From Patescibacteria group bacterium (GTDB lineage Bacteria; Patescibacteriota; Minisyncoccia; Phycocordibacterales; Phycocordibacteraceae), in assembly GCA_038064495.1 (NCBI GenBank), contig JBBTSZ010000004.1:5363-69362 (forward strand): DNA of 64,000 bases, written 5' to 3'. Shown here one piece after another: positions 7 through 62,493 of the stretch. The notes under the pieces were generated by a model, which had not been told where the DNA came from, searched no databases, and worked only from the letters and a program-made list of their open reading frames with translations. The position numbers were made by a program, and so were the translations under genes. Positions within the stretch are counted from its first letter, which is position 1; every line of letters begins with the position of its first letter.

Positions 7-1860
7 ATGAAACGAATGACAAGGAACCGCTTTATCTATAGTGTTTTTCTCGGATGTATTTTGTTGCTTCCGTCCTACGATGCGCACGCGGCAATGCTTC
101 AAACCCAATGGGCGAGTTCCTGTCCAGCAGGTTGGGTTTCAACGGGAATTACCGATGATAACTTTGATTCATATCATCATCTCGGCGAGGGTTTTGTACA
201 AGGCGCAATTGTTCAGCTCTGCATCAAGTCTGATGATGCAAGCATAACTCTCTTTTCTGAATGGAATGCAGGCGCAACCTGTTCAACTGACTATTCATTC
301 ATGAATTTGTATGATGACCTTGGCGACACGTCTCAATCGAGCGATCTACCGTCGCTTCACGACACAAACGAAAATAGTTATTTGCCAAGTGGCAGTAATG
401 ATAACCACTGGTGTCTGAAAGCAACTGGAGACAGCTCGACGAGCATAGTGCCTCTTTGGCGTGTCTGGAATAGTTCAAACACAGATGGACCTGGTTGCCA
501 ATCGGATGAGACAGTGATTATGGACGGAATTAATAGCGTATTCAATCTTAATCACGCAGTTCACACAGGAGCGAACGAATCCTCACTTTGTTTAAAGATT
601 GTCAGTGACGGGGCCTGTGGAAGTGCAAACGGTGTTGAAGTATCATCAGCTCCAAGCACTGATTTGTGTCTTGTGGGAACAGCAAGTGCCGTGAGTGGAA
701 CAGGACCATGGACATGGAACTGTACTGGAATAAATGGTGGAGTGACGGCATCTTGTTCCGCACCTAAAACAGCAAGTGTCCCGCCTACGGATCCTATAGT
801 TACCGGTACGGCGACCTACACAAATACCTCATATCCTTTCACGTTTACCTCAACTGATCCAAATGGCGACCCACTATGGTATGGCATTGACTGGAATGGA
901 GATGGAACAACCGACGAACTAGCTCCTGCTTCAGGAACTGTTCCAAGCGGAACACCACAAAGCGTAAACCACCAATGGGCTGTTGCCGGAGACTATGTAT
1001 TTAAAGTGCGTGCTATACGTGGAGCTTCCATAGAATCTGCATGGGTCTCAACCTCTATTCATGTTGAAGATCAAAGTGCTCTGCCAGTAGCGTTGATTAC
1101 TGCATCTCCCGAGACTGTTGCGCCAGGAAATTCAACTACGCTTACCTATACCTGTTCCGGCGGAACGTCAGCATTCATCAATAATGGCGTAGGCACTGTT
1201 GTTCCTGCAACAGGTGGAAGTACGGTAGTAACTCCTGCTCAGACAACAACGTATGAACTTATCTGCACAAACGCAGCAGGTTCAGCTGAAGACTCTGTTG
1301 TTGTGACCGTCGCTCCTCCGGGTTCGTTATCATGTACCGTATCGAATCAAAATCCTGAAGTCGGAGAGCTGATATCGTATACCGTCACTCCTTCGAGTGG
1401 TGCTGCTGGTCCCTACACCTGGGATGACTCAAATGGAGGAACGTACGGAACCGGAAATAAAGCACTTCGTACCATGGAAGCGATAGGAATCTATGCCATG
1501 AGTGTGCAGGGAATGAATGCACCCGAGGCATTCTGTCCGCAGGTAACGGTGGGAGCTAACTCCTGTAGCCAACCTTCTTCAGGCACGATTACTGCAACAC
1601 CAAGTCGGGTAAATCCTGGTGGTAGTACGGTTATCGCGTGGACTCTGAATAGAGGAGTTGGCGTTGCCTGCCACGTGACTGGTCCAGGACTTTCAGTAGA
1701 TATACCAATTCAAGCAACATGCGAAGGACCAATTCCTGTGTATGAAGATAATTCCTCTCCACAAACCATTACTGCACAATCTACCTACGTCATCACTTGT
1801 GATAGTGTTCAAGTCGCGCGTAAGACAGTAAACGTCATACCAGCAGTCAATGAGTTCTAG
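7..1860 (+). CDS. Secreted Cys/Thr-rich surface protein, paralog A (Ig-like repeats, conserved C-terminal module)
   Basis: ATG start; signal peptide MKRMTRNRFIYSVFLGCILLLPSYDAHAA; many Cys; repeated about 80 aa units (SL/ASxxAxP..TxxYxLxCTN); C-terminal about 180 aa homologous to the C-termini of the 2891 and 5726 proteins, ending VNVIPAVNEF. Confidence 0.75.
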   Translation: MKRMTRNRFIYSVFLGCILLLPSYDAHAAMLQTQWASSCPAGWVSTGITDDNFDSYHHLGEGFVQGAIVQLCIKSDDASITLFSEWNAGATCSTDYSFMNLYDDLGDTSQSSDLPSLHDTNENSYLPSGSNDNHWCLKATGDSSTSIVPLWRVWNSSNTDGPGCQSDETVIMDGINSVFNLNHAVHTGANESSLCLKIVSDGACGSANGVEVSSAPSTDLCLVGTASAVSGTGPWTWNCTGINGGVTASCSAPKTASVPPTDPIVTGTATYTNTSYPFTFTSTDPNGDPLWYGIDWNGDGTTDELAPASGTVPSGTPQSVNHQWAVAGDYVFKVRAIRGASIESAWVSTSIHVEDQSALPVALITASPETVAPGNSTTLTYTCSGGTSAFINNGVGTVVPATGGSTVVTPAQTTTYELICTNAAGSAEDSVVVTVAPPGSLSCTVSNQNPEVGELISYTVTPSSGAAGPYTWDDSNGGTYGTGNKALRTMEAIGIYAMSVQGMNAPEAFCPQVTVGANSCSQPSSGTITATPSRVNPGGSTVIAWTLNRGVGVACHVTGPGLSVDIPIQATCEGPIPVYEDNSSPQTITAQSTYVITCDSVQVARKTVNVIPAVNEF

Positions 1861-1923
1861 TCACAGGACGTAGAATAGGGGATAAGCTACGTTCGCACGG
1901 TAGACACTCGCTACAATACCTAC

Positions 1924-2904
1924 ATGCCTCCTGAACAACCACAAGAAAATACCGCCTACGAACAACAGGAAGAAAGTTTGTGGAAAAAGCAGAAAATAGC
2001 GGTTGTGTGTGGGGCTCTCGCCACACTCGTGGTGCTTGCACTGTTTTTCTTCGAGTTCAAGTCACGCCTGATACTACCAGGTGACAACATTGTTATCTCA
2101 GCCGGTTACTTTCGAGTGAGTCCGTTGTATATCGTCAACAAAGCGACAACAACACCAGTGCTCGTCAGTTACGGTGGAGTCGAGAAGAAAGCATTTGATA
2201 TGCTTATACTCAGTGATGGCTCCAAACTTTATTCTCTTCGTGAAGAGAGTGATGTACCGTCTTTAAATATCTACCGGGTGGATATCGAAGGTACCGTTAC
2301 ACAATTAACAAACAGCCCGACAGTGAAATTCAATATTTCAGCAGATCCTTCCGAGACGCATATTATTTACGAAGAAATGGTTGCCAAAGACGACCTGGAG
2401 ATATCTACTACTTCTTCGTGGGATATACAGCAACTTGATTTAAACACGCGTGCTGTTGAGCACATAACAAGTGGCGTGCAACCACGATATATACGCTCAG
2501 GTGCTCTTTTGGTCGGTCAAAAGAATGGAGTAGTCCTCTACCACCCCGAGAATCAGTCACGCAAGAGTGCGAGTTCCACCCCGGTGCTTTCTTCCAAAGT
2601 ATATTCACTCTATGCGGTGAGCGCAGAGGGAGAACACGTCGCTGCCTACAACACCAAAACAGGCGCAGTAGATGTATTTGACGTTACGGTGGCAGGGACA
2701 CTTTCCTATGCTTACTCGAGCAAGCCTGAGCACCAACCCTCCAATATCAGCTTCAGTGACGGAGAGCCAGTCTCAGTAGAATCAACCCCGTCTCCTCGTG
2801 GAGTCGTGTATACGGTAACCCGCTATAGCGTAAGCCGTACCGAATGGAACATTACTGGTCCGCAAGGACTTATAGCCCAGCGACTCATATATGCATCACA
2901 TTAA
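1924..2904 (+). CDS. Single-pass membrane protein with predicted beta-rich (TolB/PD40-like) ectodomain, paralog 1
   Basis: Short charged N-terminus then TM IAVVCGALATLVVLALFFF; remainder beta-strand-rich; paralog of 4780..5733; stop overlaps start of next gene by 14 nt. Confidence 0.6.
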   Translation: MPPEQPQENTAYEQQEESLWKKQKIAVVCGALATLVVLALFFFEFKSRLILPGDNIVISAGYFRVSPLYIVNKATTTPVLVSYGGVEKKAFDMLILSDGSKLYSLREESDVPSLNIYRVDIEGTVTQLTNSPTVKFNISADPSETHIIYEEMVAKDDLEISTTSSWDIQQLDLNTRAVEHITSGVQPRYIRSGALLVGQKNGVVLYHPENQSRKSASSTPVLSSKVYSLYAVSAEGEHVAAYNTKTGAVDVFDVTVAGTLSYAYSSKPEHQPSNISFSDGEPVSVESTPSPRGVVYTVTRYSVSRTEWNITGPQGLIAQRLIYASH

Positions 2905-4714
2905 AAGACCACTCTTTTTCATAAGTTTTATTCTCCTCGTTACTGCGCCGGGGCAGGCGTATGCGTTTTCCTACACCCAAGTACACACACTGTGGCAGGA
3001 CCCCGCCTACGTTTCAAACAATGCTCCAGACTACCTTGGTCCAACCTTCCCAGGATGGGGCTTGTTTCCTTTTTTCGCTGACCCGGTAGGACCTTTAGGG
3101 ACATATCCGACCTATGAAGCTATGTGTGACTCGTTTGCCACGGCGCAAGGCTACACGAACACCACTGACTTTTATTGTGTCTACGATGCTCAAATGAGTA
3201 GTTCTAGTTTCGGAACACCGTGTTTTGGCACTGCATGCTCACCGGGCGTAGGAACCATCAACATTTACAATGGCTTTGTTAAATTGTATACAAATCCACC
3301 GACACAGACATCCTATGCAACAATCAGTGCACAGCTTACTGCTCTCTGGACCACGTGGCTTAGCAATGTAGGTCTTGGCATACTCCCGAATCCGCTCCCA
3401 ACCAACCCAGACGTCTGTGACCGGTCAGAAGTATTTAGTGGTCTTATACCGCCGCTTGGATTCAACCCTCCTAACTCAATTCCATTCTACGACAGGTGCA
3501 ATATTTATCATCATGTAGGAATGCCTTCGAGTGTACCCAGTGCTTCGCTTTCCGCTACACCCCCAACAGTAACAGCAGGAAGTAGTGCATTGCTTACGTA
3601 CACCTGTAGTAATGGCGCCACCTCAGCAACCATTGATAATGGTGTCGGGTCAGTTACTCCCGCGGCAGGAGGGAGTGTGCCGGTGACACCAGGCTCTACC
3701 ACCACCTATAGCCTTGTTTGTACAAACGCAAATGGCGCAAGTGTTCCAGCCGTTACAACCGTAACGGTTATCCCTCTCCCAACGCTGCCGGACTTGACTA
3801 CCGGAGCTATCTCACCAACCACTGCAACCGCAGGGCAGTCCACGAGTCTTTCCGCGCCGGTATCAAACACGGGTAATGGGGCAACTGGAGTAGTCTTTAC
3901 TGACCTGTTCCAAAGCGCCACTGACTCATCGGGTAGTAACGCAACCGATATCGGTACGTATCCGAGTATTGCACTCCCTGCAAGCATTGGTAACCTCGCA
4001 CTCCTTTCCTATACCTTCCCGACGGCAGGAACCTACTACCTTCGTGCGTGTGCTGACAAATCATCTAGTGGAAGCCCCGGAGTTATTTCTGAGTCTAATG
4101 CCCTTGGTACCGCAGAAACCAACAACTGTGGCCCATGGACAGCCGTTACGGTTGCTTCTGCGGGAGTACCGAGTGTTTCCTGCACCCCCTCAAATGCAAA
4201 CCCACCAGTTGGCGGAACCGTCATCTATACCGCAACAGTCGGTGGAGGAGCGGGAGCGCCCTTTACGTGGAATCCGTCACTTCCATCAGCTTGTACTGCA
4301 AGTACGGGAAGTACCATCTCGTGTACCTTCACGACGGCAGGCCTCTACGCTATGAATGTGTCTGCTACAGGAGTCGCAGGCTCAGTACCATGTTCTCCAA
4401 ATCCTATTCAAGTTGGTGCCCCATCGTGTGCGGTGCCAGCGAATGCAACACTGACGCCAAGTATGAATCGTGTTCGACAGGGAACCGGCACGACCATTAG
4501 TTACAACGTCACTGGTGGCATCAACACCTCGTGCACTATCACGGGTCCCGGAGCTCCCGGCACCATCAACGCAAATGCCTGTGCCCTGAATCCATCATCA
4601 GGTTCCTTCTCAACTGGACCACTGAATTCACAAGCTACCTACATCATTAGGTGTGACGGCACCGAGCTCTCTCGCACTATCGTGAATATCATTCCGAACT
4701 TCAAAGAGTTCTAG
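2891..4714 (+). CDS. Secreted Cys/Thr-rich surface protein, paralog B (Ig-like repeat + CARDB-like domain + conserved C-terminal module)
   Basis: Signal peptide (…LLVTAPGQAYA); CARDB-like hallmark DLTTGAISPT…ESNALGTAETNNCGPWTAVTV; last about 310 aa about 70-80% identical to the 5726 protein; ends TIVNIIPNFKEF. Confidence 0.8.
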   Translation: MHHIKRPLFFISFILLVTAPGQAYAFSYTQVHTLWQDPAYVSNNAPDYLGPTFPGWGLFPFFADPVGPLGTYPTYEAMCDSFATAQGYTNTTDFYCVYDAQMSSSSFGTPCFGTACSPGVGTINIYNGFVKLYTNPPTQTSYATISAQLTALWTTWLSNVGLGILPNPLPTNPDVCDRSEVFSGLIPPLGFNPPNSIPFYDRCNIYHHVGMPSSVPSASLSATPPTVTAGSSALLTYTCSNGATSATIDNGVGSVTPAAGGSVPVTPGSTTTYSLVCTNANGASVPAVTTVTVIPLPTLPDLTTGAISPTTATAGQSTSLSAPVSNTGNGATGVVFTDLFQSATDSSGSNATDIGTYPSIALPASIGNLALLSYTFPTAGTYYLRACADKSSSGSPGVISESNALGTAETNNCGPWTAVTVASAGVPSVSCTPSNANPPVGGTVIYTATVGGGAGAPFTWNPSLPSACTASTGSTISCTFTTAGLYAMNVSATGVAGSVPCSPNPIQVGAPSCAVPANATLTPSMNRVRQGTGTTISYNVTGGINTSCTITGPGAPGTINANACALNPSSGSFSTGPLNSQATYIIRCDGTELSRTIVNIIPNFKEF

Positions 4715-4779
4715 ACAAAAATCTACTCTGGATTGGGGATTAAAAAAACGACAGCCTGAATCAAGGCTATACTAGACGC

Positions 4780-5733
4780 ATGCCTCCGATACAAAGCATC
4801 CCGGGAATGCCAGCGACCCCATCTTTTACAAATCACCCCAGACACTGGAATAAAAAGATATGGGCACTCGTCTTTGGTGCGATAGCTACTGTTGTAGTAC
4901 TTACGATGTTTTTCCTTGAATGGAAATCAGGACGCCTCCACTTCTCCGAACCAACAATCCTGCTAAGTCCGTCGGAAGCGCCTTTGTTTCAGGCTCTCAC
5001 CATCAATTTAGGTGGAAAAACGACCTCGCCAATTTTGGTAGAAGGCCTTGGTACCGCAGTCGTTACTGATATGGCTCCAAACAAACAGAGAAACTATTAC
5101 TTGATAGCAAACCAATCACTCACTGAATCAAATCTTTATTCTTCAGATTCCCATAACCCGCAAGCAGGCCTGAGTCAGAGAACGTTCTCGCACACCACCA
5201 AATTCAGTCTCTCGTATGACCCGCAATCAGGCGCAGTCGCGTATGTATCGAAAAAGGGTAGTGAACCTGGCGTAATAACGCTTCTCCTGCAGGGCACGAC
5301 AACAGAGAAGTTGCTGGGAGAGGGATCTAATCCAGAGTTTCTGAAAGGAGGATTTTTTGTAACGTATCAAAAAGGTAACGAAGTCCTTTCAGTAAACGTG
5401 CACACAAAAGAGACACACACCCTGTTTACTATTCCCGAGGGAGGCACGTATGCTGTAGACGGAGAAGGACTGCGAGCAGTTGTGTATGATCCGACAACAC
5501 GCACTCTCCAGTATTTCTCACTTGAGGGCATGACATCTGCAAGCTTTACGACGTTTAAGAAAGAAGAAGGAGTAGCTATCCAGAGACGTATTCTAGGAAT
5601 TTCTGGAGACACGCTTGCAAGTCTTATTCAAGCCGAGGAAGGTATCTCTATTACCCTTGGGAAAGACAAACCAGTCTTCTTCGGAGGTGTTACAGCACAC
5701 GAACACTCACGACTGACCATCTATCATGACTAA
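4780..5733 (+). CDS. Single-pass membrane protein with predicted beta-rich ectodomain, paralog 2
   Basis: Same architecture as 1924..2904 (N-terminal tail, TM IWALVFGAIATVVVLTMFFLEW, beta-rich ectodomain); N-terminal regions align; stop overlaps next gene start by 8 nt (ATGACTAA). Confidence 0.6.
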   Translation: MPPIQSIPGMPATPSFTNHPRHWNKKIWALVFGAIATVVVLTMFFLEWKSGRLHFSEPTILLSPSEAPLFQALTINLGGKTTSPILVEGLGTAVVTDMAPNKQRNYYLIANQSLTESNLYSSDSHNPQAGLSQRTFSHTTKFSLSYDPQSGAVAYVSKKGSEPGVITLLLQGTTTEKLLGEGSNPEFLKGGFFVTYQKGNEVLSVNVHTKETHTLFTIPEGGTYAVDGEGLRAVVYDPTTRTLQYFSLEGMTSASFTTFKKEEGVAIQRRILGISGDTLASLIQAEEGISITLGKDKPVFFGGVTAHEHSRLTIYHD

Positions 5734-8116
5734 TACTTCACAACTTCCCGTACTCGGTTTACTTACTTCGGCTGTGGTGATAGGTATATCGTTGTTTGCA
5801 TCGCATGCTGTATACGCGCAAACATACACAGCCGGTTCTTGTGGTGCGACAATAGTATCGAGCATAAATGCTTTTGACTGTAGCTCAAACTATTTGACGT
5901 GTGCGCCTGACCAATTAGGACAAGATCGCATACCTGCAACTAAATTACGAGAGTGTCCCGCGGGAAGCGGCGATTTCTATCTAATTGATCAGCCAGGAAG
6001 ATGTATTGCTGATCCTGTATGCGCCTTCGGAGCACCGTCTGCAAGCATAACTGCGAATCCGGCCTCTATTGTGCGTGGGAATAGCAGTGCTGTTTCCTGG
6101 AGCTCAGCAAATACAACCTCGTGTACGAGTACCAGCTTCTCCACTGGTAATGCTACGAGCGGCACGATAGCGGTATCGCCCACACAAACGACAAGCTACG
6201 ACGTTACCTGTACGGGTCCCGGCGGTTCAACGGGTATAAAAACTGTCACTGTCACCGTCACCGCTCCCGTGTTTGATGCTAGTTGTTCAGTTAATCCAAC
6301 GTCTGCACAAATTGGAGAGACGGTTACGTGGAGTGCCAGCGCATGGAATGGAACCGCACCTTATACATTTTCTTGGATTGGACAAATTATAGAAGGACTC
6401 ACAGGATCCAGTGCATCTGTGTCCTATTCAACTTCAGGTGTAAAGACAGGATCGATACAGGTAACAGACTCAACATCTAATGGAACAAGTGTCAGTCTAA
6501 CCAATAACGACAACAAAATTTGTACGGGACCTGTAATTGCATCAAACATTACGCCCGGACTTCAAGAAGACGGAGGAACACAGTCGGCTATGCAAAATGA
6601 GGCGTACTCCTTTACTAGAGGAGGTTTTCGTGGAGGTATTGGTATCTTCTATGACCAATCATACAGTGCCACCTATGCTACAGTTAAGGCAAATCCTCAG
6701 AACTACTGTATAGATGTAAAACTCTCACAACGGTGTAATCCTCCTCCTGGTTGGGAAGGTTGTAATTGGAGTTTCGATATAGATATTCACCAAGGAACGG
6801 GTCTACGAGACCCTCAAGCGAGCGATCAAGGTCCGTATGTACCGAATCAAAACGGATTTGGTACTTGGAATCAAGCGCGTTTCTTTGGTGCAGTACTTGG
6901 AACACCAGTCTCAGGAGCTCAGACAATTAACCGTTCCTGTGTAAACTCAGTTACCGTTGCCGCCGCCGCAACAACAGCAAATCTTTCTGCAAATCCTATC
7001 TCCATTACGCAAGGCAACTCCTCAACGCTTACATGGTCATCCACAAATGCCACATCCTGTACGAGTCCTGACTTCAATACCGGTGGAGCAGTCTCGGGAA
7101 GTATTTCCGTAAGTCCCTCAGCTGACACTATGTACACAGTAGACTGCACTGGTTCTGGTGCTCCTGCATCAAGTTCGGTAACGGTATCAGTCACCGCGGC
7201 TCAATCTGATCTAACTGCTGCAGCGGTTTCTCCTGCCAGTGCAATAGCCGGTACGCTCGTTACACTTTCAGCACTTGTTTCTAATTCTGGAGTTGCAGGA
7301 ACTGGAGTAGGTTTCACAGACCTGTTTCAGCGGGCCACAGACTCCTCTGGTAGTAACGCGACTGACATTGGTACCTATGCGAATACGGCACTCGCCTCTA
7401 GTGGAAATACAAGTGCAACCATGAATTACTCCTTCCCATCAGCAGGCACCTGGTATGTGCGTGCTTGTGCCGATAAAGCTTCAGCTGGCGACAGCGGCGC
7501 CATCAACGAATCAAATGAAGGAAATAACTGCGGTCCCTGGACCGCCATCACGGTTGCTGCTGCAGGAGTGCCTGCGGTTTCTTGCACCCCTTCAAACGCA
7601 AATCCTCCCGTCGGTGGAACCGTCACGTATACGGCAACCCCAAGTGGTGGGGCGGGAGCACCATTCACGTGGAATCCATCACTCCCGTCTGCCTGTACAC
7701 CAAGTACCTCAAGCACGATTTCCTGTACCTTCACAATCGCAGGCCAGTACGCTATGAATGTGTCTGCTACAGGGGTCGCCGGCTCCGTACCATGCTCACC
7801 GAATCCTATCCAAGTGGGTGCTGCGGCTTGTGGTGTTCCTGCCAGCGCAACCCTGACTCCGGTTAACAACCGTGTTCGTAAGGGCACTGGAACCAGCATC
7901 AATTACAACGTGACTGGTGGCATCAACACCTCCTGTACTATCATGGGTCCAGGAGCTCCAGGCACCATCAGTGCAAACGCCTGTACTCTCAATCCATCTT
8001 CAGGCTCTTTCTCCACCGGCAATCTCTCTGCACAAGCAACCTACATCATTACGTGTGATGGTGTTGAACTCAAACGTACGGTGGTGAACATCATTCCGAA
8101 CTTTGTTGAGTATTAA
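5726..8116 (+). CDS. Secreted Cys/Thr-rich surface protein, paralog C (two Ig-like repeats, CARDB-like domain, conserved C-terminal module)
   Basis: Signal peptide (…ISLFASHAVYA); two repeats SASITANPASI…/ANLSANPISI…; CARDB-like DLTAAAVSPA…ESNEGNNCGPWTAITV; C-terminal module shared with 2891 protein; ends TVVNIIPNFVEY. Confidence 0.8.
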   Translation: MTNTSQLPVLGLLTSAVVIGISLFASHAVYAQTYTAGSCGATIVSSINAFDCSSNYLTCAPDQLGQDRIPATKLRECPAGSGDFYLIDQPGRCIADPVCAFGAPSASITANPASIVRGNSSAVSWSSANTTSCTSTSFSTGNATSGTIAVSPTQTTSYDVTCTGPGGSTGIKTVTVTVTAPVFDASCSVNPTSAQIGETVTWSASAWNGTAPYTFSWIGQIIEGLTGSSASVSYSTSGVKTGSIQVTDSTSNGTSVSLTNNDNKICTGPVIASNITPGLQEDGGTQSAMQNEAYSFTRGGFRGGIGIFYDQSYSATYATVKANPQNYCIDVKLSQRCNPPPGWEGCNWSFDIDIHQGTGLRDPQASDQGPYVPNQNGFGTWNQARFFGAVLGTPVSGAQTINRSCVNSVTVAAAATTANLSANPISITQGNSSTLTWSSTNATSCTSPDFNTGGAVSGSISVSPSADTMYTVDCTGSGAPASSSVTVSVTAAQSDLTAAAVSPASAIAGTLVTLSALVSNSGVAGTGVGFTDLFQRATDSSGSNATDIGTYANTALASSGNTSATMNYSFPSAGTWYVRACADKASAGDSGAINESNEGNNCGPWTAITVAAAGVPAVSCTPSNANPPVGGTVTYTATPSGGAGAPFTWNPSLPSACTPSTSSTISCTFTIAGQYAMNVSATGVAGSVPCSPNPIQVGAAACGVPASATLTPVNNRVRKGTGTSINYNVTGGINTSCTIMGPGAPGTISANACTLNPSSGSFSTGNLSAQATYIITCDGVELKRTVVNIIPNFVEY

Positions 8117-8164
8117 GTAGTCCACAGTTTGTTTGAGGTGTGATATACGTGCTTTACTACGAGT

Positions 8165-8356
8165 ATGTCTCGAGGAATGATACTTATCATGCTTGGTATT
8201 TTGATTGCACTCACTCCCTTTGTTGGGCTCCCCTCAGCAATCTTGGTATTCCTTCTCCCACTTCTTGGAGCGATCGTTGCGTTTTTCGGGGGACTCATTC
8301 GAATAGAAGCAACATCGAGACCGATTCAACCAGAACACATTGTTGGTACGAAGTAG
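8165..8356 (+). CDS. Small two-TM membrane protein (hypothetical)
   Basis: 63 aa, two hydrophobic helices (ILIMLGILIALTPFVGL / ILVFLLPLLGAIVAFFGGL); sits between surface-protein block and ATPase; no homology call possible. Confidence 0.35.
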   Translation: MSRGMILIMLGILIALTPFVGLPSAILVFLLPLLGAIVAFFGGLIRIEATSRPIQPEHIVGTK

Positions 8357-8412
8357 CCACTCACACTGCTCTCACGTGAGCTCAAAACCATCAGTATCGT
8401 ATACTGTAGTGT

Positions 8413-10125
8413 ATGGATGAAAATCAGGATCGCGTCACCTATTTTGCAGCGACTGATGCCAGAGGAAGAAAACAACCCTTCGGTATAAAAATGAAGGACC
8501 GTTCCCGTCACATGTATGTGATAGGAAAGACCGGCATGGGTAAATCAACTCTGCTTGAAAATATGGCGATTCAAGATATCCGTAATGGGGAAGGCATGGC
8601 CTTTATTGACCCACACGGAAGTGCAGTGGAAACACTTCTTGACTATATTCCTGCAAACCGTGTGAATGATATTGTCTACTTCGCTCCGTTTGATTTGGAA
8701 CGCCCGATAGCATTTAACGTGATGGAGGATGTGGGCTACGACAAGCGACACCTCGTGGTGTCGGGCCTCATGGCTACGTTTAAAAAGATCTGGGTAGATG
8801 CGTGGTCTGCTCGTATGGAGTACATTCTTTCAAACACACTGCTGGCACTTCTTGAGTACCCAGGCTCCACCTTGCTCGGGGTGAATCGCATGTACACCGA
8901 CAAGGGGTACCGCAAGAAGGTGATTGATAACGTGAAGGACCCCGTGGTGAAAGACTTCTGGGTGAAAGAATTTAATACGTACACCGATCGGTACACCCAG
9001 GAGGCGACACCGGCTATTCAAAACAAAATTGGGCAGTTCACGAGCAATCCACTCATTCGTAACATCATTGGTCAGCCACACTCCTCGTTTGATATTCGCG
9101 AGTTGATGGACAAAAGAAAGATTCTCATCATCAATCTTTCAAAGGGATTAGTGGGAGACACGAACATGAAGCTTCTTGGTTCCATGATTACCACGCGCAT
9201 CTTCCTTGGGGCTATGAGTCGTGCAAACCTGCCTCCCCACGAACTCGTGAAGGCACCTAATTTTTATTTTTACGTAGATGAATTCCAGAACTTCGCAAAC
9301 GAGACCTTCGCGGAAATTTTGTCTGAGGCTCGTAAATATCGTCTGAATCTTATTATTGCGCATCAATATGTGGAACAGATGGAAGAAGAGGTCGCGGCAG
9401 CAGTCTTCGGGAACGTGGGCACGACGGTCGCGTTCCGAGTTGGACCGTTTGATGCGGAAAAACTGGAAGTGGTGTTTGCTCCAGAATTTACCCCCGAGGA
9501 CCTCGTCAACCTCGGTTTCGCGCAGATTTACCTGAGTCTCATGATTGATGGCATTGGCTCCCGGCCTTTTTCTGCAGTTACCATTCCTCCGATAGAGCCA
9601 CCGAAGCGCTCGTATCGTCCTGAAGTGATTGAAGCATCGCGCGCACAATTTAGCGGAGCACGTGAGTCAGTGGAGGGGTTGATTTACGAGGAGCTTGCTA
9701 TGAGTGAGGCTCTTCCGCCTGAACCACCTGCAAAAAAGACCTACCCACCAAAGCGAGTAGAAAATCGAGAACCCAGACTAGAACAACCGAGGCGTGAAGA
9801 GCGACCACCTGAACGACCTCGTCCAGAGGCTCGTAGACCTGAGCGTGAAAAACGTTCTGAACCTCCGCAACAGAGCGTACAAGACCTGAAAGCTATTTTA
9901 CGAGCCACTCTTGAAAAGAGTACTAAAGCAAAAGACATAACACGAGAAGAAAGAACAGGAACCCTCAAAAGCGCACTTTCAGGTGTCGTTCAAAATTCTC
10001 CCGAGCTGAAAAAAGAAGTATCACCGGCACCTTCGCTGCGTGCACATGAATCAAAACCTAAGGCGGAATCTGTGTTTGAGATTCCAGAAGAAGTATTACG
10101 CGACCTTTTCAAAAAGGAACTCTAG
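8413..10125 (+). CDS. Soluble P-loop ATPase of FtsK/HerA/VirD4 superfamily, type IV coupling protein (TraD/TraG/VirD4)-like, with charged low-complexity C-terminal tail
   Basis: Walker A GKTGMGKST; FIDPHGS about 25 aa downstream (T4CP-like DPxG); Walker B YFYVDEFQNF; IIAHQ motif; no N-terminal TM; tail rich in PRREERPPERPRPEARRPEREKR. Confidence 0.65.
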   Translation: MDENQDRVTYFAATDARGRKQPFGIKMKDRSRHMYVIGKTGMGKSTLLENMAIQDIRNGEGMAFIDPHGSAVETLLDYIPANRVNDIVYFAPFDLERPIAFNVMEDVGYDKRHLVVSGLMATFKKIWVDAWSARMEYILSNTLLALLEYPGSTLLGVNRMYTDKGYRKKVIDNVKDPVVKDFWVKEFNTYTDRYTQEATPAIQNKIGQFTSNPLIRNIIGQPHSSFDIRELMDKRKILIINLSKGLVGDTNMKLLGSMITTRIFLGAMSRANLPPHELVKAPNFYFYVDEFQNFANETFAEILSEARKYRLNLIIAHQYVEQMEEEVAAAVFGNVGTTVAFRVGPFDAEKLEVVFAPEFTPEDLVNLGFAQIYLSLMIDGIGSRPFSAVTIPPIEPPKRSYRPEVIEASRAQFSGARESVEGLIYEELAMSEALPPEPPAKKTYPPKRVENREPRLEQPRREERPPERPRPEARRPEREKRSEPPQQSVQDLKAILRATLEKSTKAKDITREERTGTLKSALSGVVQNSPELKKEVSPAPSLRAHESKPKAESVFEIPEEVLRDLFKKEL

Positions 10126-25492: not shown

Positions 25493-27310
25493 ATGCCTGA
25501 ACAGAGGAGTCTTCGCGTACGCGCGGGGCTGTGGATACAAGCAAATAAAGGGTTTTGCACGGCTCTCGCTTTTATACTTGCCGTCATGCTCGTGCCGACT
25601 ATTTTGCCGAGAATTATTCTTGGCGAGGACTACAAGGACGTTCCAGTTGCATTTACTGATGCTGCGATGTACCAAGCGCATGTTGCACACGTGGGGAGAG
25701 GACACCTGAGTGATGGGAATCCCTATCTCTTAGAACATGCTCATGAACCTGCACTGGTCATCTTCCTTGGAGACTATCTCCATGCACTCCCCTTATTTGT
25801 CGGAGTCCCGCTCGTTCCGACTTTGTTTCTAAACCTCCTTGTGTTTAGTCTTTTGTTCGCAATCTCATTTTATCTCCTGTTTCTCAGACTTGGTGTTGGT
25901 CGCAATAAATCTGCACTCGGCGTAGCTCTCCTCTACCTCCTTTTCTTCAGCCACATAGACCGACCGAGCAATATGCAGCCGTTCCTCCCACTTCTTGCAC
26001 TGTTCTATATCGGTCTTCTCGGAATGTTAGAGGCCCCAACGAAACGATCAATTGCTCTGGTTGCAACTACGCTCGGTGCAATGTTCTATTTTTATTCATA
26101 CCTATGGCAATCATTTGTTATTTCGCTCGGCCTCCTTTTCCTATATGCGCTCGTTCGCAAACAAAAAGAACGAGTAAAAGGGACCGTACTTGCTGGTAGT
26201 AGCGGGGTGCTCATCGGCCTCCCGTCGCTCTTCTATATTCTTTGGCTTTCACACACCTCGCCATACTTTTGGGAGAGCATTGGTCGGTACGGTCTCGTAG
26301 AAACACATTTACCGATGATGGAAGCACTGTACTCTGGCGGATGGGTATGGTTTGCACTCTGCCTTCTCAGTATTCTTCTGTGGCGTGTGAAAGTGCTTCG
26401 AAACGACTCTTTTTTTACGAGGCTCTCAGTGTTCTTTTTTGTTTCCGGCTTTGGTCTCTGGTTCATGCAAGTCAGTAATGTACTTACGGGAAAACTTCTT
26501 GAGAATGCTCAGCACATGGTGTACTTCATTGCTGCTTGGCTCATTCTTTTTGTATTTGCGATGGGAGCGAGACTGTACGATTTTCGACATCTCCTGACGC
26601 GCAGATTACAGGCTCTCGTTTTTTTCAGTCTTCTGTTACTTACGCTCGTTTCGCTCAATAACCTATACCGATATTACGTACTAAATTATATTCGTGACCC
26701 TCTGACAGCGAGACTTACCGACATTTGGCGAACCCAACAACTTTCCCAAGCACCGCTTGCCTATATCGACGCACACGAAACAGATCCTGTTGTTATATGG
26801 GAAGACCCACACGACATGAGTACGTGGGACACACCAGTTCTTTCGCGTGATTATGTGTTGTTTGCGACGCCAGCTATGTGGCATCTCGTACCAGACGGTG
26901 AACTCGTAGAGCGATTTCTGGTAGCAGAGTACTTTGCTACTCCAACAGAGGAAAGTCTTAAGAAAGATGTGGATCTCTATCTTGGACGTCAGTGGGCATT
27001 CCACAAAGCAAAGACCATTGAACGTCGCATAAAGCTCTGTCGTATTCTCCATCACCTTACGAACCCATCTTATGATTGCGGTACCGTACCCTCATCAGTG
27101 GACGTCATAGGAGAAGAACGATTTGTCGAGTGGGAACGCAAATTCACAAGTGATATCAAGCCACATATACTCGACTACCTCGCAAAGTATCACGTCTCCT
27201 ATATCTTGAAGGATGTACTCTCTCATCCTGAATATCAGCCGGAGAAACTCGGAGCCAAGAAGGTATATGAAGATGGACGGTTTGAGCTATGGAAACTAGC
27301 GAACCAGTAG
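25493..27310 (+). CDS. Polytopic membrane protein, GT-C-type glycosyltransferase candidate (GtrC/PMT/ArnT-like)
   Basis: At least 10 hydrophobic helices in N-terminal about 400 aa followed by soluble C-terminal domain; context GtrB-like + GtrA-like. Confidence 0.45.
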   Translation: MPEQRSLRVRAGLWIQANKGFCTALAFILAVMLVPTILPRIILGEDYKDVPVAFTDAAMYQAHVAHVGRGHLSDGNPYLLEHAHEPALVIFLGDYLHALPLFVGVPLVPTLFLNLLVFSLLFAISFYLLFLRLGVGRNKSALGVALLYLLFFSHIDRPSNMQPFLPLLALFYIGLLGMLEAPTKRSIALVATTLGAMFYFYSYLWQSFVISLGLLFLYALVRKQKERVKGTVLAGSSGVLIGLPSLFYILWLSHTSPYFWESIGRYGLVETHLPMMEALYSGGWVWFALCLLSILLWRVKVLRNDSFFTRLSVFFFVSGFGLWFMQVSNVLTGKLLENAQHMVYFIAAWLILFVFAMGARLYDFRHLLTRRLQALVFFSLLLLTLVSLNNLYRYYVLNYIRDPLTARLTDIWRTQQLSQAPLAYIDAHETDPVVIWEDPHDMSTWDTPVLSRDYVLFATPAMWHLVPDGELVERFLVAEYFATPTEESLKKDVDLYLGRQWAFHKAKTIERRIKLCRILHHLTNPSYDCGTVPSSVDVIGEERFVEWERKFTSDIKPHILDYLAKYHVSYILKDVLSHPEYQPEKLGAKKVYEDGRFELWKLANQ

Positions 27311-36585: not shown

Positions 36586-38487
36586 ATGAAGGAGAAAGGT
36601 CTCATTTTCGTCTACGAAACCGAACAGATACCGGCGGTCCTTGTGTATCTCGAGGAACATCCAGACTCCATGGTCATCAGCCTCACCCTTTGGGTTGAAC
36701 GGGAACTACGAGCAAACGGGGTGACGAGTCTCCCTCTTACTGACTTTGTATTGCCAACTGAAAATAATCACTCACTATTGGAACAGGCTGACACGCTCGC
36801 ACGAGAGTGGTACCAAACTCCTGAGATGAGTTTCTTCTCGTATGCCGGGATGCATCTCGGGGAAGTTCTAGAGCCGATGCTCTCTGAATATTTCCAAAGA
36901 ATTCTGTACTATCTTCGAGCAGTGCATGCTGTTCTTGCAGTACATGCCGACAGAACATTGCTCGTTACACCGCACTCTTGTAAGGAGGCGCGGTCCACAA
37001 GTGGTCCTCTCGCGCCGTTTGAAATACGTATTGTGGCAAATGTTATTTCTACTATCGGCAAGCAGCGAAGCCTCTCAGTTCAGCTACTTGGTAGGGAACC
37101 AGTAACTCCTACCGCACATATCTACCCTCGTTCACTACTTCGCTCGTATTCACTTGCCTGCATCAACGCATGCACCAAATTCCTAACTCCCCAAAAGCCT
37201 CTTAGGATATATGCAAGTGAATATTGGTGGCACGTCGCTCCCTTCATTCAGACTATGGATGATGCAGAAGTGGTATTTATGGAACGAAAAGAACTCCGGA
37301 ATATTCCATGGACTGAAATACGGAAACATCGTATCAGGTTTGCACACCCCGTTGATGCCACCTCACGGAAGATGAGACGAGACACACGCGAGATAGTGAA
37401 GCAGTTTACGCGTGAGTGGGAAGCAAAACGCGAGAGTGTACGCTCGATGGAGGGCTTCACCTACGAGGGAGACAACTGGTGGAGCTTAGTTGAAGCGGCA
37501 TATGAATATCTCGTCACCGTATATGCAGAACGTATTGTTACTGACCACAAAGCCTTTGAAGCATTATTTAAACGTGAGCATATCAATCGGGTACTGCTAC
37601 GCGCCAGTGTTGGGGGAACACAACACCATTTTTTTGTCGCTGCTCAGGTAGCACGCATGCTCCATATTCCCTCAATTGAGTTACAGCACGCAACTGAAGT
37701 CGTGGATGCACAATCGGTCCACTCTCGGCTTGCTGCGGATTATCTGGCTTCATATGGAGAAGCAACGAAAGAGAATCTAACTCGTAATCACGGGTATGAC
37801 CCAAACCGGATACGAGCGATAGGGTCACCTCGCTTTGATTCGTATACTCAACGTGATTCCTTTACTGAAGCTAAGAAAAGTGAATTTCTTACAACTCTTG
37901 GTTTGAATCCAGAAAAGCCAACACTCCTGTACGCCGTACCATCAGAAATTGTTGATTTGTATATTGCTAACTTTGATTCGTACCAAATCGCTCACTACTT
38001 TACAGAACTCAGGGCGGTGCAGGAACATATTCCGGAGTTGCAGATACTTGCGAAATTCAGAGGCGGCGCGCTGACTGAACGCTATCGGGATTTCCTTACT
38101 GAACTATTTCCTGATGGGGGAATAGTGCTTTCTGATTCACGAGACATCGTGTCGCTTATGCGGGCTTCAACACTTGTCCTCGCCGGTAACTCAACACTCT
38201 TTCTTGAGGCACTTCAGGCAGATTGCCCAACGCTGCTCTATCCGCTTCAGCCCCATGACGTTGTTACGAAGCAGACCTATCAGGCCGTACTTCCTGCACC
38301 AGATAACGCTGATACACTTAAAAACCTTGTCGAACGACTTGTCTTCAATCAGGCCGAACGGGAATTACTGCTTACAGCACAGCAGGCGTTCCTCCACACC
38401 AAGTATGCATTTGACGGCAAGGCGAGTGAGCGTATAGCTGCATTGCTTCGCGAACCACTCGTTAGCTATCCAAACGACATAGCGTAA
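36586..38487 (+). CDS. Hypothetical 633 aa protein; candidate Maf/DUF115-like or capsule-synthesis (KpsC/S-like) nonulosonate transferase
   Basis: No strong motif; size and position directly upstream of PseB-like gene; C-terminal half has GT-B-like alternating pattern. Assignment is inference only. Confidence 0.25.
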   Translation: MKEKGLIFVYETEQIPAVLVYLEEHPDSMVISLTLWVERELRANGVTSLPLTDFVLPTENNHSLLEQADTLAREWYQTPEMSFFSYAGMHLGEVLEPMLSEYFQRILYYLRAVHAVLAVHADRTLLVTPHSCKEARSTSGPLAPFEIRIVANVISTIGKQRSLSVQLLGREPVTPTAHIYPRSLLRSYSLACINACTKFLTPQKPLRIYASEYWWHVAPFIQTMDDAEVVFMERKELRNIPWTEIRKHRIRFAHPVDATSRKMRRDTREIVKQFTREWEAKRESVRSMEGFTYEGDNWWSLVEAAYEYLVTVYAERIVTDHKAFEALFKREHINRVLLRASVGGTQHHFFVAAQVARMLHIPSIELQHATEVVDAQSVHSRLAADYLASYGEATKENLTRNHGYDPNRIRAIGSPRFDSYTQRDSFTEAKKSEFLTTLGLNPEKPTLLYAVPSEIVDLYIANFDSYQIAHYFTELRAVQEHIPELQILAKFRGGALTERYRDFLTELFPDGGIVLSDSRDIVSLMRASTLVLAGNSTLFLEALQADCPTLLYPLQPHDVVTKQTYQAVLPAPDNADTLKNLVERLVFNQAERELLLTAQQAFLHTKYAFDGKASERIAALLREPLVSYPNDIA

Positions 38488-51294: not shown

Positions 51295-53058
51295 ATGAAA
51301 AACTGGGGCACGATTAAACGTTTATATGGTAAATACCGACTGCATGTCGGTACCCTTATTGTACTTGGACTTGTTGGGGCGGTGCTTGATGGTCTGGCTA
51401 TCAACATTGCCGTACCCTCTATATCGTTTCTCGTAAATCCGCACTCGGTCCCTACCGACATCATTTCAAAGACCATAGCAGCACTCTTTGCTTTTTTTGG
51501 TGTTTCGTTCACCTTTCGGCACCTCATTATCCTTATTACGATTCTTATGTTCGTTCGTGCAGGGGTGCTTGTTATCTTCGGCTACCTGCGTGGCTGGATT
51601 ACGGGAGATTTCCTTGCAAGTGAAAGTAAGATTGTGCTTGGTGCCACGCTTGCTGCCTCGTGGCCCTTTCTCCTTAAGCAAAAGATTGGTCATGTACAAA
51701 ATACCCTTGAGCGTGATTTGCAACGTTCAGCAAATCTACTTGAGTCGTTTAGTCAACTCGTCCAGTCTTTCACTGGATTCTTGATGTACCTCCTGGTGGC
51801 ACTCAATATCTCTCCATCGACAACCCTTTTTACCTTTGCTGCGGGTGTCGGGCTGGCATTACTCATTCGTCCTTTACTTGCCCGAACACAACGTATTGGC
51901 ATGCAAATGGCCAATACCGACCGTCAGGTATCCCAGTTTGTAACTGAGCATGTTATTGGCATGAAGGCGTTAAAAGCTGCTGGCGTAGAGGGGAAGGCTT
52001 TCTTGGCTGGTTCAGAACTATTTACGACACTGCACACGCTCTATGTGCGGATGGCAACGGTACGTTCACTTTCAACGAGCTTTTTTCAACCGTTCGCAAT
52101 GATATTTATCATTATTCTATTTACACTTAAATATCATTCCGGCTCGTTTGATATTGTGGCATTTGCTGCCACCCTCTATTTGATTCAGAAGATCTTTACG
52201 TATCTCGAGAGTACTCAGGCATCACTCCACGGCATTCGGGAACTCCTGCCGTATGCCGCACACATTGATGAGTTTAAGCAGCAGCTCGAGACTGCCCATG
52301 AGGAGCCTCAAAAGGGCACTCAGTCCTTCTCGCTCAAGAAATCTCTTGCATTTAAGAATGTGTCATTTGGCTACAGCCAAGAAAAGGTAATCCTCAAGAA
52401 TGTATCGTTCTCACTTGCTGCAGGAACCACGACAGCTGTTATTGGTCCCTCTGGTGCCGGGAAGACTTCTATCGCCGACCTAGTGCTCCGTCTCTTTGCT
52501 CCGACTAGTGGAGTGATTGAAGTGGATGGTATTGACTACAAAGACATTTCTCTCGAGAGCCTCCGTGGTTCACTTGGATACGTTACACAAGACTCATTTC
52601 TACTCCACGCATCCATCGCAGATAATGTACGTTTCTACCGCAGTGAACTACGCGATGAAGACATAACCAATGCACTACACTCTGCAAACCTTACGGATTT
52701 TATTGAAAGCCTACCGGATGGAGTTAACACCATTGTGGGGGATAGGGGAGTGCTACTTTCAGGGGGCCAGCGCCAGCGTGTCGCGCTTGCACGTGCACTT
52801 GCAGGCTCACCTGCACTCTTGGTACTCGATGAAGCAACGAGCGCGCTTGATCGTGAGTCAGAACGTCTGGTGCAGGAATCTATTGAGGCACTGCATGGCA
52901 AAGCCACAGTCTTAGTTATTGCTCACCGTCTCTCAACGATTGAGCGAGCTGACTCTATTTTAGTTCTGGATAAGGGTTCTGTTCTTGAGTCGGGTCGCCC
53001 TGAAGAACTGATACAAGACCCAAATTCGTACTACAGTCGTCACCGCACAGGAGGGTAG
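51295..53058 (+). CDS. ABC transporter, fused permease/ATPase exporter (MsbA-like)
   Basis: 6-TM N-terminal domain; Walker A GPSGAGKTS; signature LSGGQRQRVALARAL; Walker B LLVLDEATSALD. Confidence 0.8.
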   Translation: MKNWGTIKRLYGKYRLHVGTLIVLGLVGAVLDGLAINIAVPSISFLVNPHSVPTDIISKTIAALFAFFGVSFTFRHLIILITILMFVRAGVLVIFGYLRGWITGDFLASESKIVLGATLAASWPFLLKQKIGHVQNTLERDLQRSANLLESFSQLVQSFTGFLMYLLVALNISPSTTLFTFAAGVGLALLIRPLLARTQRIGMQMANTDRQVSQFVTEHVIGMKALKAAGVEGKAFLAGSELFTTLHTLYVRMATVRSLSTSFFQPFAMIFIIILFTLKYHSGSFDIVAFAATLYLIQKIFTYLESTQASLHGIRELLPYAAHIDEFKQQLETAHEEPQKGTQSFSLKKSLAFKNVSFGYSQEKVILKNVSFSLAAGTTTAVIGPSGAGKTSIADLVLRLFAPTSGVIEVDGIDYKDISLESLRGSLGYVTQDSFLLHASIADNVRFYRSELRDEDITNALHSANLTDFIESLPDGVNTIVGDRGVLLSGGQRQRVALARALAGSPALLVLDEATSALDRESERLVQESIEALHGKATVLVIAHRLSTIERADSILVLDKGSVLESGRPEELIQDPNSYYSRHRTGG

Positions 53059-62490: not shown

Positions 62491-62493
62491 GCA

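What the first reader, a model, noticed from the sequence alone, without database searches (positions are those of the whole stretch)
7..10125. Repeated cassette: secreted Cys/Thr-rich CARDB/Ig-like proteins paired with single-pass membrane proteins, next to a soluble VirD4/TraD-like ATPase. Candidate undescribed surface or secretion system.
Three paralogous signal-peptide proteins (7-1860, 2891-4714, 5726-8116) alternate with two paralogous single-pass membrane proteins (1924-2904, 4780-5733) that have predicted beta-rich ectodomains. Each membrane-protein gene overlaps the start of the following secreted-protein gene by 14 and 8 nt, which implies translational coupling and 1:1 stoichiometry. 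The block ends with a small 2-TM protein and a soluble P-loop ATPase with type IV coupling protein (T4CP-like) motifs. I know of no characterized system with this architecture, in which a dedicated membrane partner is co-translated with each variable surface protein and an FtsK/VirD4-type motor follows. It could be a surface adhesin/host-attachment apparatus, a dedicated export route, or a contact-dependent DNA/protein transfer module.
Basis: partly seen in the sequence, partly recalled or inferred. Interest (0 to 1): 0.85.

Follow-up and report, generated by a model that had tools for sequence, protein, structure and literature searches.

The report
Paired surface-protein genes, unrelated neighbouring ATPase
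This stretch of an uncultured Patescibacteria genome carries repeated two-gene units, each a membrane-anchored partner followed by a secreted adhesin-like protein with a shared tail; the units recur in relatives, but the neighbouring VirD4-like ATPase belongs to a separate, widely conserved cell-wall gene block.

Summary
In detail: all seven ORFs, the paralogy, the 14- and 8-nt overlaps, the signal peptides, the single TM anchors and the soluble T4CP-like ATPase are there.

The interpretation splits in two. (1) The partner-plus-secreted-protein pairing is real and conserved. All five M-family members sampled without reference to S are followed by an overlapping gene. Where that gene is complete, it is an S-family protein. 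The S family is defined by a ~90-aa Cys-containing Ig-like C-terminal domain ending ...VNVIPxFxEF-COOH, with no Pfam or NCBIfam model. A third pair (456-aa type I membrane protein + S1) starts just upstream of the window.

(2) The ATPase is not part of it. None of 80 ATPase loci from other species has an M or S gene within 10 kb. The ATPase and the small 2-TM gene instead lie in a conserved block (Mur ligases, TP_methylase, peptidoglycan enzymes, GT4s), and the cassette is inserted into that block here.

Best reading: modular cell-surface display units. The shared tail probably binds a common envelope receptor and the partner serves the variable head. That mechanism is inferred, not shown. It is an undescribed variant of a known kind, not a new secretion system.

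The parts
7..1860 (+). S1: secreted S-family protein (617 aa). Signal peptide, unique Cys-rich head, Ig-like domains, shared C-terminal domain ending IPAVNEF. Its partner gene (456 aa, signal peptide + C-terminal TM) lies just upstream of the window and overlaps the S1 start by 4 nt.
1924..2904 (+). M1: type II membrane protein (326 aa). Short cytoplasmic N-terminus, one TM helix, TolB-like beta-propeller ectodomain. Overlaps the S2 start by 14 nt.
2891..4714 (+). S2: secreted S-family protein (607 aa). Signal peptide, alpha/beta head (~26-210), Ig-like, CARDB, two Ig-like domains, tail IPNFKEF.
4780..5733 (+). M2: paralogue of M1 (317 aa, 27% identity), same topology. Overlaps the S3 start by 8 nt.
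5726..8116 (+). S3: secreted S-family protein (796 aa). Signal peptide, different head and middle region, CARDB. The C-terminal 388 aa are 66% identical to S2. Tail IPNFVEY.
1573..1857 (+). S1 C-terminal ~95-aa tail domain. Family signature: invariant R, C, GP, C, Q, C, N, P, E and terminal aromatic residue.
4427..4711 (+). S2 C-terminal tail domain, same signature.
7829..8113 (+). S3 C-terminal tail domain, same signature.
8165..8356 (+). Small 2-TM protein (63 aa). NOT part of the cassette. It belongs to the conserved ATPase/cell-wall block, with homologues on the same strand upstream of the ATPase in 57 of the 80 other genomes.
8413..10125 (+). Soluble TrwB/TraD-like P-loop ATPase (570 aa) with a 140-aa E/P/R/K-rich tail. 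NOT part of the cassette. It is an orphan T4CP homologue conserved across Paceibacteria-type Patescibacteria in a peptidoglycan/glycan gene block.

Best explanation
The region holds three tandem copies of a two-gene envelope module found in Paceibacteria-type Patescibacteria. Each module has an upstream membrane-anchored partner gene that overlaps a downstream gene for a Sec-secreted, Cys-rich, beads-on-a-string Ig-like/CARDB protein (the S family). Here two partners are the M type (N-terminal TM anchor plus TolB-like propeller) and one is a type I membrane protein just outside the window.

S proteins combine a variable head with a conserved ~90-aa C-terminal Ig-like domain that always ends ...VNVIPxFxEF at the very C-terminus.

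Shown: the pairing and its gene overlap are conserved across many genomes; the S tail domain is a widespread family without a curated model; the cassette is a lineage-specific insertion into a conserved cell-wall/glycan block; and the 2-TM protein and VirD4-like ATPase belong to that block, not to the cassette.

Inferred: these are cell-surface display or attachment units. The shared tail, which is homogenised within each genome, docks all S proteins to one common envelope receptor such as wall, glycan or S-layer. The partner, which diverges together with the head, binds or matures its own S protein at the membrane. The variable heads would give the cell a repertoire of binding specificities.
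For: Pair conservation, starting from M: the orthologues P0002, P0003 and P0006 and five distant M-family representatives all have an overlapping downstream gene (overlaps of 4-20 nt). Where that gene is complete it is an S-family member ending VPKFQEF or IPRYEEF.

Pair conservation, starting from S: a DNA pattern scan gave 119 loci, 87 of them confirmed by the tail HMM. Of 44 complete S genes with at least 900 nt upstream, 12 have an M-family gene directly upstream. Of 45 upstream same-strand neighbours, 40 have a hydrophobic segment against a 35% background, p=7e-14. Homologues of the 456-aa partner (E=5e-76 and 3e-74) also overlap S genes in L177 and L211.

Family sizes: M has 148 representative clusters, nearly all about 300-340 aa. 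34 of 59 similarity-found S homologues end in P-x-x-x-E-[FYW] at the exact C-terminus. Invariant tail residues are shown.

Head, tail and partner evolution: within-genome paralogue pairs have very similar tails (0.55-0.93 normalised score) but divergent partners (0.10-0.17) and heads (0.06-0.18). The S2 tail is closer to the S3 tail (0.82) than to the tails of its own orthologues (0.38-0.41).

ATPase independence.
Against: No physical interaction between partner and S protein was tested. AlphaFold-multimer was not available. The M1 model has only moderate confidence (pLDDT 67).

Partner-head co-divergence is confounded by phylogeny. The Spearman correlation of M with head is 0.47 and of M with tail is 0.40, which is not very different.

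Only 12 of 44 S genes have a detectable M partner. The other upstream genes belong to several unrelated families, and an N-terminal hydrophobic segment can be a signal peptide rather than an anchor.

The S-side loci were selected by the tail motif. No receptor for the tail was identified. The S2 head fold has no informative match.

In two relatives a different DUF87 ATPase (911 aa, DUF8128) lies 2.5-4.5 kb downstream of the cassette. This was not followed up.
Confidence: 0.55

Rival explanations
1. One reading: secreted proteins, membrane partners, the 2-TM protein and the VirD4/TraD-like ATPase form one apparatus, either a dedicated export route or a contact-dependent transfer module driven by the ATPase.
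For: The genes are adjacent and on the same strand in this genome. The ATPase is a true TrwB/TraD-superfamily NTPase. A different DUF87-type ATPase lies a few kb downstream of the cassette in L001 and L002.
Against: None of the 80 orthologous ATPase loci has M or S genes within 10 kb, even with profile HMMs. None of the 119 S-motif loci has the ATPase, and neither do the M loci. In contig Ga0181349_1000001 they are more than 50 kb apart. The ATPase's conserved neighbours are Mur ligases, TP_methylase, DUF4015, YkuD/Peptidase_S11, an LTD/PKD protein and GT4s. The S proteins have ordinary Sec signal peptides. PMC12102498 reports that most Patescibacteria T4CP homologues are not near virB4.
Confidence: 0.04
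2. Effector-protector pairs. The variable S heads are harmful activities aimed at host or competitor envelopes. The co-translated membrane partner shields the producer's own membrane or wall, as an immunity-like protein does.
For: Heads are variable on a constant delivery or anchoring scaffold. The partner diverges with the head rather than with the tail. There is one dedicated partner per S gene, with tight coupling. Membrane-anchored extracellular immunity proteins are known in monoderm toxin systems (established knowledge, not tested here).
Confidence: 0.15
3. The partner is a transient assembly factor. The membrane-anchored propeller or other ectodomain acts as a foldase, holdase or disulfide/maturation scaffold for its Cys-rich S protein as it emerges from Sec, and is not part of the final surface structure.
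For: S proteins have 18-26 Cys and multi-domain beta-sandwich architecture. Coupled translation would place the partner at the site of export. Partner families are diverse, as expected for client-specific helpers.
Against: No chaperone, thioredoxin or peptidyl-prolyl isomerase signature is present in M. A generic folding problem would not need a head-specific helper of 300 aa. This cannot be separated from the anchoring model with sequence data.
Confidence: 0.15
4. There is no functional link. These are ordinary, fast-evolving surface proteins that happen to lie next to membrane-protein genes in compact Patescibacteria genomes.
For: Patescibacteria genomes are gene-dense with frequent short overlaps. 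About 35% of background ORFs carry a hydrophobic segment. Many S genes have non-M upstream genes.
Against: M-S adjacency was retained in every M locus examined, across 17-55% M identity and in different genomic contexts. The module is duplicated as a unit (this window, L002, L136, L159, L211). Upstream envelope partners are enriched at p=7e-14.
Confidence: 0.06

Closest known systems
WxL / Csc cell-surface complex clusters of lactobacilli and enterococci (recalled from the literature, not tested here)
   Same: Monoderm envelope. Clusters encode secreted proteins with a conserved C-terminal non-covalent anchoring domain, together with a co-encoded membrane-anchored partner (signal peptide plus C-terminal TM, the same topology as the 456-aa partner of S1). 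Modules are multiplied within a genome and thought to form surface complexes.
   Different: No WxL, DUF916 or LPXTG sequence signature. The commonest partner here is an N-terminally anchored beta-propeller. The tail is a Cys-containing Ig-like domain with a strict ...PxFxEF-COOH end.
TolB of the Tol-Pal system
   Different: No TolB N-terminal domain, no PD40/TolB Pfam hit, no tolQRA/pal context and no outer membrane expected. M is TM-anchored and is always paired with an S gene. The similarity is in fold only.
Type IV coupling proteins (VirD4, TrwB, TraD)
   Same: The ATPase passes Pfam cut-offs for TrwB_AAD_bind and TraG-D_C. TrwB is the closest solved sequence. It has Walker A and B motifs.
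   Different: No N-terminal TM domain. Scores are far below every NCBIfam equivalog cut-off (44 vs 366 bits). No VirB4, relaxase or other T4SS genes were seen in the ORFs of the window that were scanned, or among the recurrent gene families around the ATPase in 80 loci. The conserved neighbours are wall and glycan genes. This matches the orphan T4CP homologues reported for Patescibacteria (PMC12102498).
CARDB/Ig-like archaeal and bacterial cell-surface proteins and intimin/invasin-type adhesins
   Same: S2 and S3 carry a CARDB domain. S2 models as a string of beta-sandwich domains whose best matches are CARDB cell-surface domains and intimin Ig domains.
   Different: No LPXTG, TM, lipobox or beta-barrel anchor. 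They have a distinct conserved C-terminal domain and tail, and a dedicated upstream partner gene.
T9SS C-terminal domain (CTD) cargo signal of Bacteroidota (analogy recalled from the literature)
   Same: A ~90-aa Ig-like C-terminal domain is shared by otherwise unrelated secreted proteins, which suggests a common sorting or attachment step.
   Different: No match to the curated CTD models. The phylum is different and no outer membrane or T9SS is expected. The domain's role here is untested.
VARTIG modules of Thermococcales (PMC8416519)
   Same: Gene modules centred on multi-Ig-domain surface proteins with a hypervariable part and variable companion genes, of unknown function.
   Different: In VARTIG the C-terminal Ig domain is the variable part and the companions are downstream. 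Here the C-terminal domain is the constant part and the companion is upstream.

Membership tests
Type IV coupling protein (VirD4/TrwB/TraD) as part of a T4SS | Nucleotide-binding domain homologous to TrwB, with Walker A and B | tested here: met
   PF10412 36.6 bits (cut-off 20.5). PF12696 29.2 bits (cut-off 22). Walker A at residue 38, Walker B at residue 285. TrwB is the only PDB sequence hit.
Type IV coupling protein (VirD4/TrwB/TraD) as part of a T4SS | N-terminal transmembrane domain anchoring the hexamer | tested here: not met
   The highest 19-aa Kyte-Doolittle window is 1.35, at residue 364. There is no N-terminal hydrophobic segment.
Type IV coupling protein (VirD4/TrwB/TraD) as part of a T4SS | Genomic association with VirB4/MPF genes or a relaxase | tested here: not met
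   No such genes among the window ORFs that were scanned. The recurrent gene families within 8 kb of the ATPase in 80 loci are wall and glycan genes. The literature reports only 148 of 5,713 Patescibacteria T4CPs near virB4.
Type IV coupling protein (VirD4/TrwB/TraD) as part of a T4SS | Score above a curated equivalog/subfamily cut-off | tested here: not met
   The best NCBIfam hit is TIGR03743 at 44.2 bits against a cut-off of 366.
TolB (Tol-Pal) | Beta-propeller domain | tested here: met
TolB (Tol-Pal) | N-terminal TolA-binding alpha/beta domain and a PD40/TolB sequence signature | tested here: not met
   There are no Pfam or NCBIfam hits above noise. The region between the TM helix and the propeller is a low-confidence linker.
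TolB (Tol-Pal) | tolQ-tolR-tolA-tolB-pal operon context | tested here: not met
   The neighbours are S genes, a sigma/anti-sigma-like pair, or SLT-like, L25 and L31/RF1 genes.
CARDB-domain cell-surface proteins | CARDB domain above the Pfam gathering score, plus a signal peptide | tested here: met
WxL/Csc surface-complex clusters | WxL C-terminal domain, DUF916 partner and a small LPXTG protein | tested here: not met
   None of these Pfam families was reported for any S protein, M protein or the 456-aa partner. The resemblance is architectural only.
T9SS CTD cargo | Match to the curated Por secretion tail models, and presence of a T9SS | tested here: not met
   No NCBIfam hit at E<=0.1 on the tails. 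T9SS genes were not searched genome-wide.
Polymorphic toxin systems | Variable C-terminal toxin domain followed by a cognate immunity gene | tested here: not met
   The variable part is N-terminal, the constant part is C-terminal, and the companion gene is upstream. No toxin domain was detected.
Anti-phage defence systems (PADLOC) | Match of the cassette proteins to a defence-system model | tested here: not met
   There are no hits for S1-S3, M1, M2 or the 2-TM protein. The ATPase gives only generic mad8/HerA P-loop hits.

The most novel reading that the evidence does not exclude
The ~90-aa Cys-containing C-terminal domain with its invariant ...N-x-x-P-x-F-x-E-F-COOH end is a previously unrecognised surface-sorting or anchoring signal of Paceibacteria-type Patescibacteria. 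A single genome-encoded receptor or processing enzyme reads it, which would explain its homogenisation within genomes. The upstream partners (TolB-like propeller, type I membrane protein, small TM proteins) are head-specific docking subunits. Together they would form a modular, exchangeable host-attachment repertoire for these presumed episymbionts.
Probability: 0.3. Interest if true: 0.65.

Novelty: new variant of a known kind. Interest (0 to 1): 0.42.

Why it matters
Patescibacteria make up a large share of bacterial diversity and are thought to live attached to other cells. Outside type IV pili in Saccharibacteria, the molecules on their surface are almost unknown.

A recurrent two-gene unit (membrane partner plus variable-headed secreted protein with a shared tail) gives concrete candidates for host-attachment proteins and for a phylum-specific anchoring signal. 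It also provides a simple sequence handle, the terminal PxFxEF domain, for finding such cargo in metagenomes.

The negative result matters as well. The VirD4-like ATPase should not be read as evidence of a secretion system here. It belongs to a conserved cell-wall/glycan block and is a separate open question.

Tried and rejected
1. The search for related loci with protein alignments of the M family (A2, A3) and of the S tail (A4) failed because no stretch was conserved enough. A degenerate DNA pattern for V-N-x-x-P-x-F-x-E-F-stop was used instead.

2. tRNA and Rfam scans of the window found nothing.

3. The promoter/terminator scan gave no signal above shuffles that would separate the cassette from the ATPase.

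4. PADLOC gave no defence-system match for the cassette.

6. Literature searches found no description of the M-S pair or the tail motif.

7. M as an anti-sigma factor was considered, because an ECF sigma gene and a DUF5667 membrane protein lie directly upstream in L001 and L003. It was rejected because M has only ~20-25 cytoplasmic residues, and a separate DUF5667 protein sits in the position expected for an anti-sigma factor.

8. The C-terminal Phe as an outer-membrane beta-signal was considered and rejected. The tail ends a soluble Ig-like domain, not a beta-barrel, and I expect this phylum to lack an outer membrane (background knowledge, not tested).


Full report
OBSERVATION. M1 and M2 are paralogues (27% identity, E=3e-14). 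S2 and S3 share 66% identity over their last 388 residues. S1 shares the last ~190-210 residues with both at 36-37%. The M-S overlaps are 14 and 8 nt. The S proteins have 18-26 Cys and 11.5-13.7% Thr. M1 and M2 each have one strong N-terminal hydrophobic segment. The ATPase has none, and carries Walker A (GKTGMGKS, residue 38) and Walker B (YFYVDE, residue 285) motifs followed by a 140-residue E/P/R/K-rich tail. Pfam finds CARDB in S2 and S3 only. In the ATPase it finds TrwB_AAD_bind, TraG-D_C and DUF87. NCBIfam gives only sub-threshold TraD/VirD4-like hits.

SOURCE AND WHAT LIES JUST OUTSIDE THE WINDOW. M1 is identical to a protein of a Patescibacteria MAG (GCA_964357455.1, contig CAYHLG010000004.1, 73.7 kb). 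The window starts 6 nt before S1. Upstream on the contig lies a 456-aa protein with a signal peptide and a C-terminal TM helix, and its gene overlaps the S1 start by 4 nt. Before that come a TP_methylase gene and, on the opposite strand, a Mur ligase. The locus therefore holds three partner-S pairs, not two.

IS THE PARTNER-S PAIRING CONSERVED? Yes.

- The close M1 homologues (49-55% identity) are all followed by an S2 orthologue with the same 14-nt overlap, in different contexts. In L001 and L003 the pair follows an ECF sigma gene and a DUF5667 membrane protein. In L007-L009 it follows ribosomal protein L25 and an SLT-like protein.
- L002 has two tandem M-S pairs, as this window does.
- A profile of the M family found 148 representative clusters among 1.84 billion, nearly all about 300-340 aa long.
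- Five of these were chosen without reference to S (P0199, P0230, P0261, P0291, P0318). All five have an overlapping downstream gene. The complete ones are S-family members.
- L211 repeats this window's arrangement: a homologue of the 456-aa partner (E=3e-74) overlapping an S gene, then M overlapping another S gene.

THE S FAMILY. Of 59 homologues found by similarity to S2, 34 end in P-x-x-x-E-[FYW] at the exact C-terminus. An alignment of the last ~95 residues shows invariant R, C, GP, C, Q, C, N, P and E, a nearly invariant terminal F, and the consensus ...IVNVIPxFxEF. No Pfam or NCBIfam model covers this domain.

A tail HMM confirmed 87 of them. Of 44 S genes with a complete 5' end and at least 900 nt upstream, 12 have an M-family gene directly upstream. 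Most others have a different tightly coupled, same-strand gene. These include homologues of the 456-aa partner, a family of ~100-111-aa proteins with an N-terminal TM, proteins with a C-terminal TM, and 231-aa proteins. 40 of 45 upstream neighbours carry a hydrophobic segment against 35% of background ORFs (p=7e-14).

WHAT VARIES WITH WHAT. In four genomes with two M-S pairs, the two S tails are very similar (normalised scores 0.55-0.93). The two partners (0.10-0.17) and the two heads (0.06-0.18) are not. The S2 tail is closer to the S3 tail (0.82) than to the tails of S2's own orthologues (0.38-0.41), although heads and partners follow orthology. So the tail is homogenised within a genome, and the partner tracks the head. 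I infer that the tail meets one common, genome-specific interactor and that the partner serves its own S protein. This is an inference. The across-genome correlations (0.47 for M vs head, 0.40 for M vs tail) are confounded by phylogeny.

THE ATPase IS A SEPARATE STORY. It has more than 8000 homologues. The 120 best listed share 67-89% identity with it, and those with source names come mostly from Patescibacteria. A scan of one genome per species returned 80 loci. Pairwise searches and profile HMMs find no M or S gene within 10 kb in any of them.

Clustering the neighbours shows a conserved block:

- PrcB_C protein
- Mur ligase, sometimes Glu racemase, Mur ligase
- TP_methylase (64 loci)
- small 2-TM protein (57)
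- DUF4015 glycoside-hydrolase-like protein or a 375-aa protein
- YkuD + Peptidase_S11 protein
- the ATPase
- LTD/PKD protein with a C-terminal TM (60)
- GT4 glycosyltransferases (68)

In this genome the order is Mur ligase, TP_methylase, [456-aa partner, S1, M1, S2, M2, S3], small 2-TM, ATPase, GT4s. The cassette is thus a ~9.5-kb lineage-specific insertion into that block.

In the other direction, no S-motif or M locus carries the ATPase. On the 675-kb contig Ga0181349_1000001 the ATPase block lies at about 446-453 kb and two S genes at 502-507 kb.

[quoted passage not shown] The ATPase here is one of those orphans. It lacks the N-terminal TM domain and any T4SS context, so I do not classify it as a functional coupling protein.

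MECHANISM. Shown: tandem, duplicable two-gene envelope modules; Sec signal peptides on S; a membrane anchor on the partner; a conserved terminal domain on S; and independence from the ATPase. Inferred: S proteins are displayed on the cell surface. The common tail docks them to a shared envelope component. The partner binds or matures the cognate head at the membrane. Head diversity provides binding specificities, plausibly for attachment to hosts or substrates.

Rival readings cannot be excluded from sequence alone. They are an immunity-like protector of a harmful head, a transient folding helper, and coincidental adjacency.

COMPARISON WITH KNOWN SYSTEMS. The closest functional analogy is the WxL/Csc surface-complex clusters of lactobacilli and enterococci (recalled from the literature). 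Those also combine secreted proteins sharing a C-terminal wall-binding domain with a membrane-anchored partner. None of their defining domains is present here. The shared C-terminal Ig-like domain also recalls the T9SS CTD in principle, but not in sequence. VARTIG modules of Thermococcales are a looser parallel with the opposite polarity of variability.

VERDICT. The partner-S module and its tail domain look undescribed and moderately interesting for Patescibacteria biology. The claimed ATPase-driven system is not real. Novelty: a new variant of a known kind, namely modular cell-surface protein complexes.

Noticed in passing
window 8165-10125, and L010-L089, L216: The soluble TrwB/TraD-like ATPase is 56-75% identical across the 80 loci from other species. 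Most are labelled Paceibacterota, Kaiser-, Adler- or Nomurabacteria; about a third carry an 'uncultured Saccharibacteria' label. It sits in a conserved block with Mur ligases, TP_methylase, a small 2-TM protein, DUF4015, a YkuD+Peptidase_S11 protein, an LTD/PKD membrane protein and GT4 glycosyltransferases. This points to a role tied to envelope biogenesis or division rather than conjugation. The small 2-TM protein might be a detached membrane domain of the T4CP; that idea was not tested.
   Followed up: partly
L004 4169-5539 (source contig, immediately upstream of window position 1): A 456-aa protein with a signal peptide and a C-terminal TM helix overlaps the S1 start by 4 nt. Homologues (E=5e-76 and 3e-74) overlap S-family genes in L177 and L211. 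This is a second class of S partner that the window cuts off.
   Followed up: yes
L001 5276-6725; L003 1918-3349: An ECF-type sigma-70 gene and a DUF5667 membrane protein (a putative anti-sigma factor) lie directly upstream of the M-S pair in two relatives. This hints that the module may be under envelope-stress or ECF control there. No such pair lies next to the cassette in this genome.
   Followed up: no
L001 12288-15023; L002 8289-11024: A 911-aa DUF8128 + DUF87 (HerA-like) ATPase lies 2.5-4.5 kb downstream of the M-S cassette in two relatives, separated from it by Na/Ca exchanger and holin-like genes. It is a different family from the window's ATPase. Whether this recurs is unknown.
   Followed up: no
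window 4121-4420 vs 7523-7822; also L002, L136, L159: The S tails within one genome are much more alike than their heads or partners, and more alike than orthologous tails. The DNA repeat in the window is 79% identical over 300 nt. This suggests gene conversion, or co-evolution with one genome-specific receptor.
   Followed up: partly
window 10259-56265: There is a very long surface-glycan biosynthesis region. It has at least three GT4 glycosyltransferases, a C-methyltransferase, a DegT-type aminotransferase, a Wzy_C/O-antigen-ligase-like protein fused to TPR repeats (53093-55240), an ABC exporter (51295-53058) and a Glyphos_transf-like protein (36586-38487). SecA (56748-59276) and GatB (62458-63900) follow.
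   Followed up: partly
L007-L009, L210, L211, L213: One genomic context recurs for the M-S module in other lineages: ribosomal protein L25, a 450-480-aa SLT-like (lytic transglycosylase) protein, M, S, ribosomal protein L31, RF1. The SLT-like neighbour may be functionally relevant to wall insertion of S proteins.
   Followed up: no
window 25493-27310 and 60901-62145: Two large ORFs (605 and 414 aa) have no Pfam match at E<=0.001.
   Followed up: no
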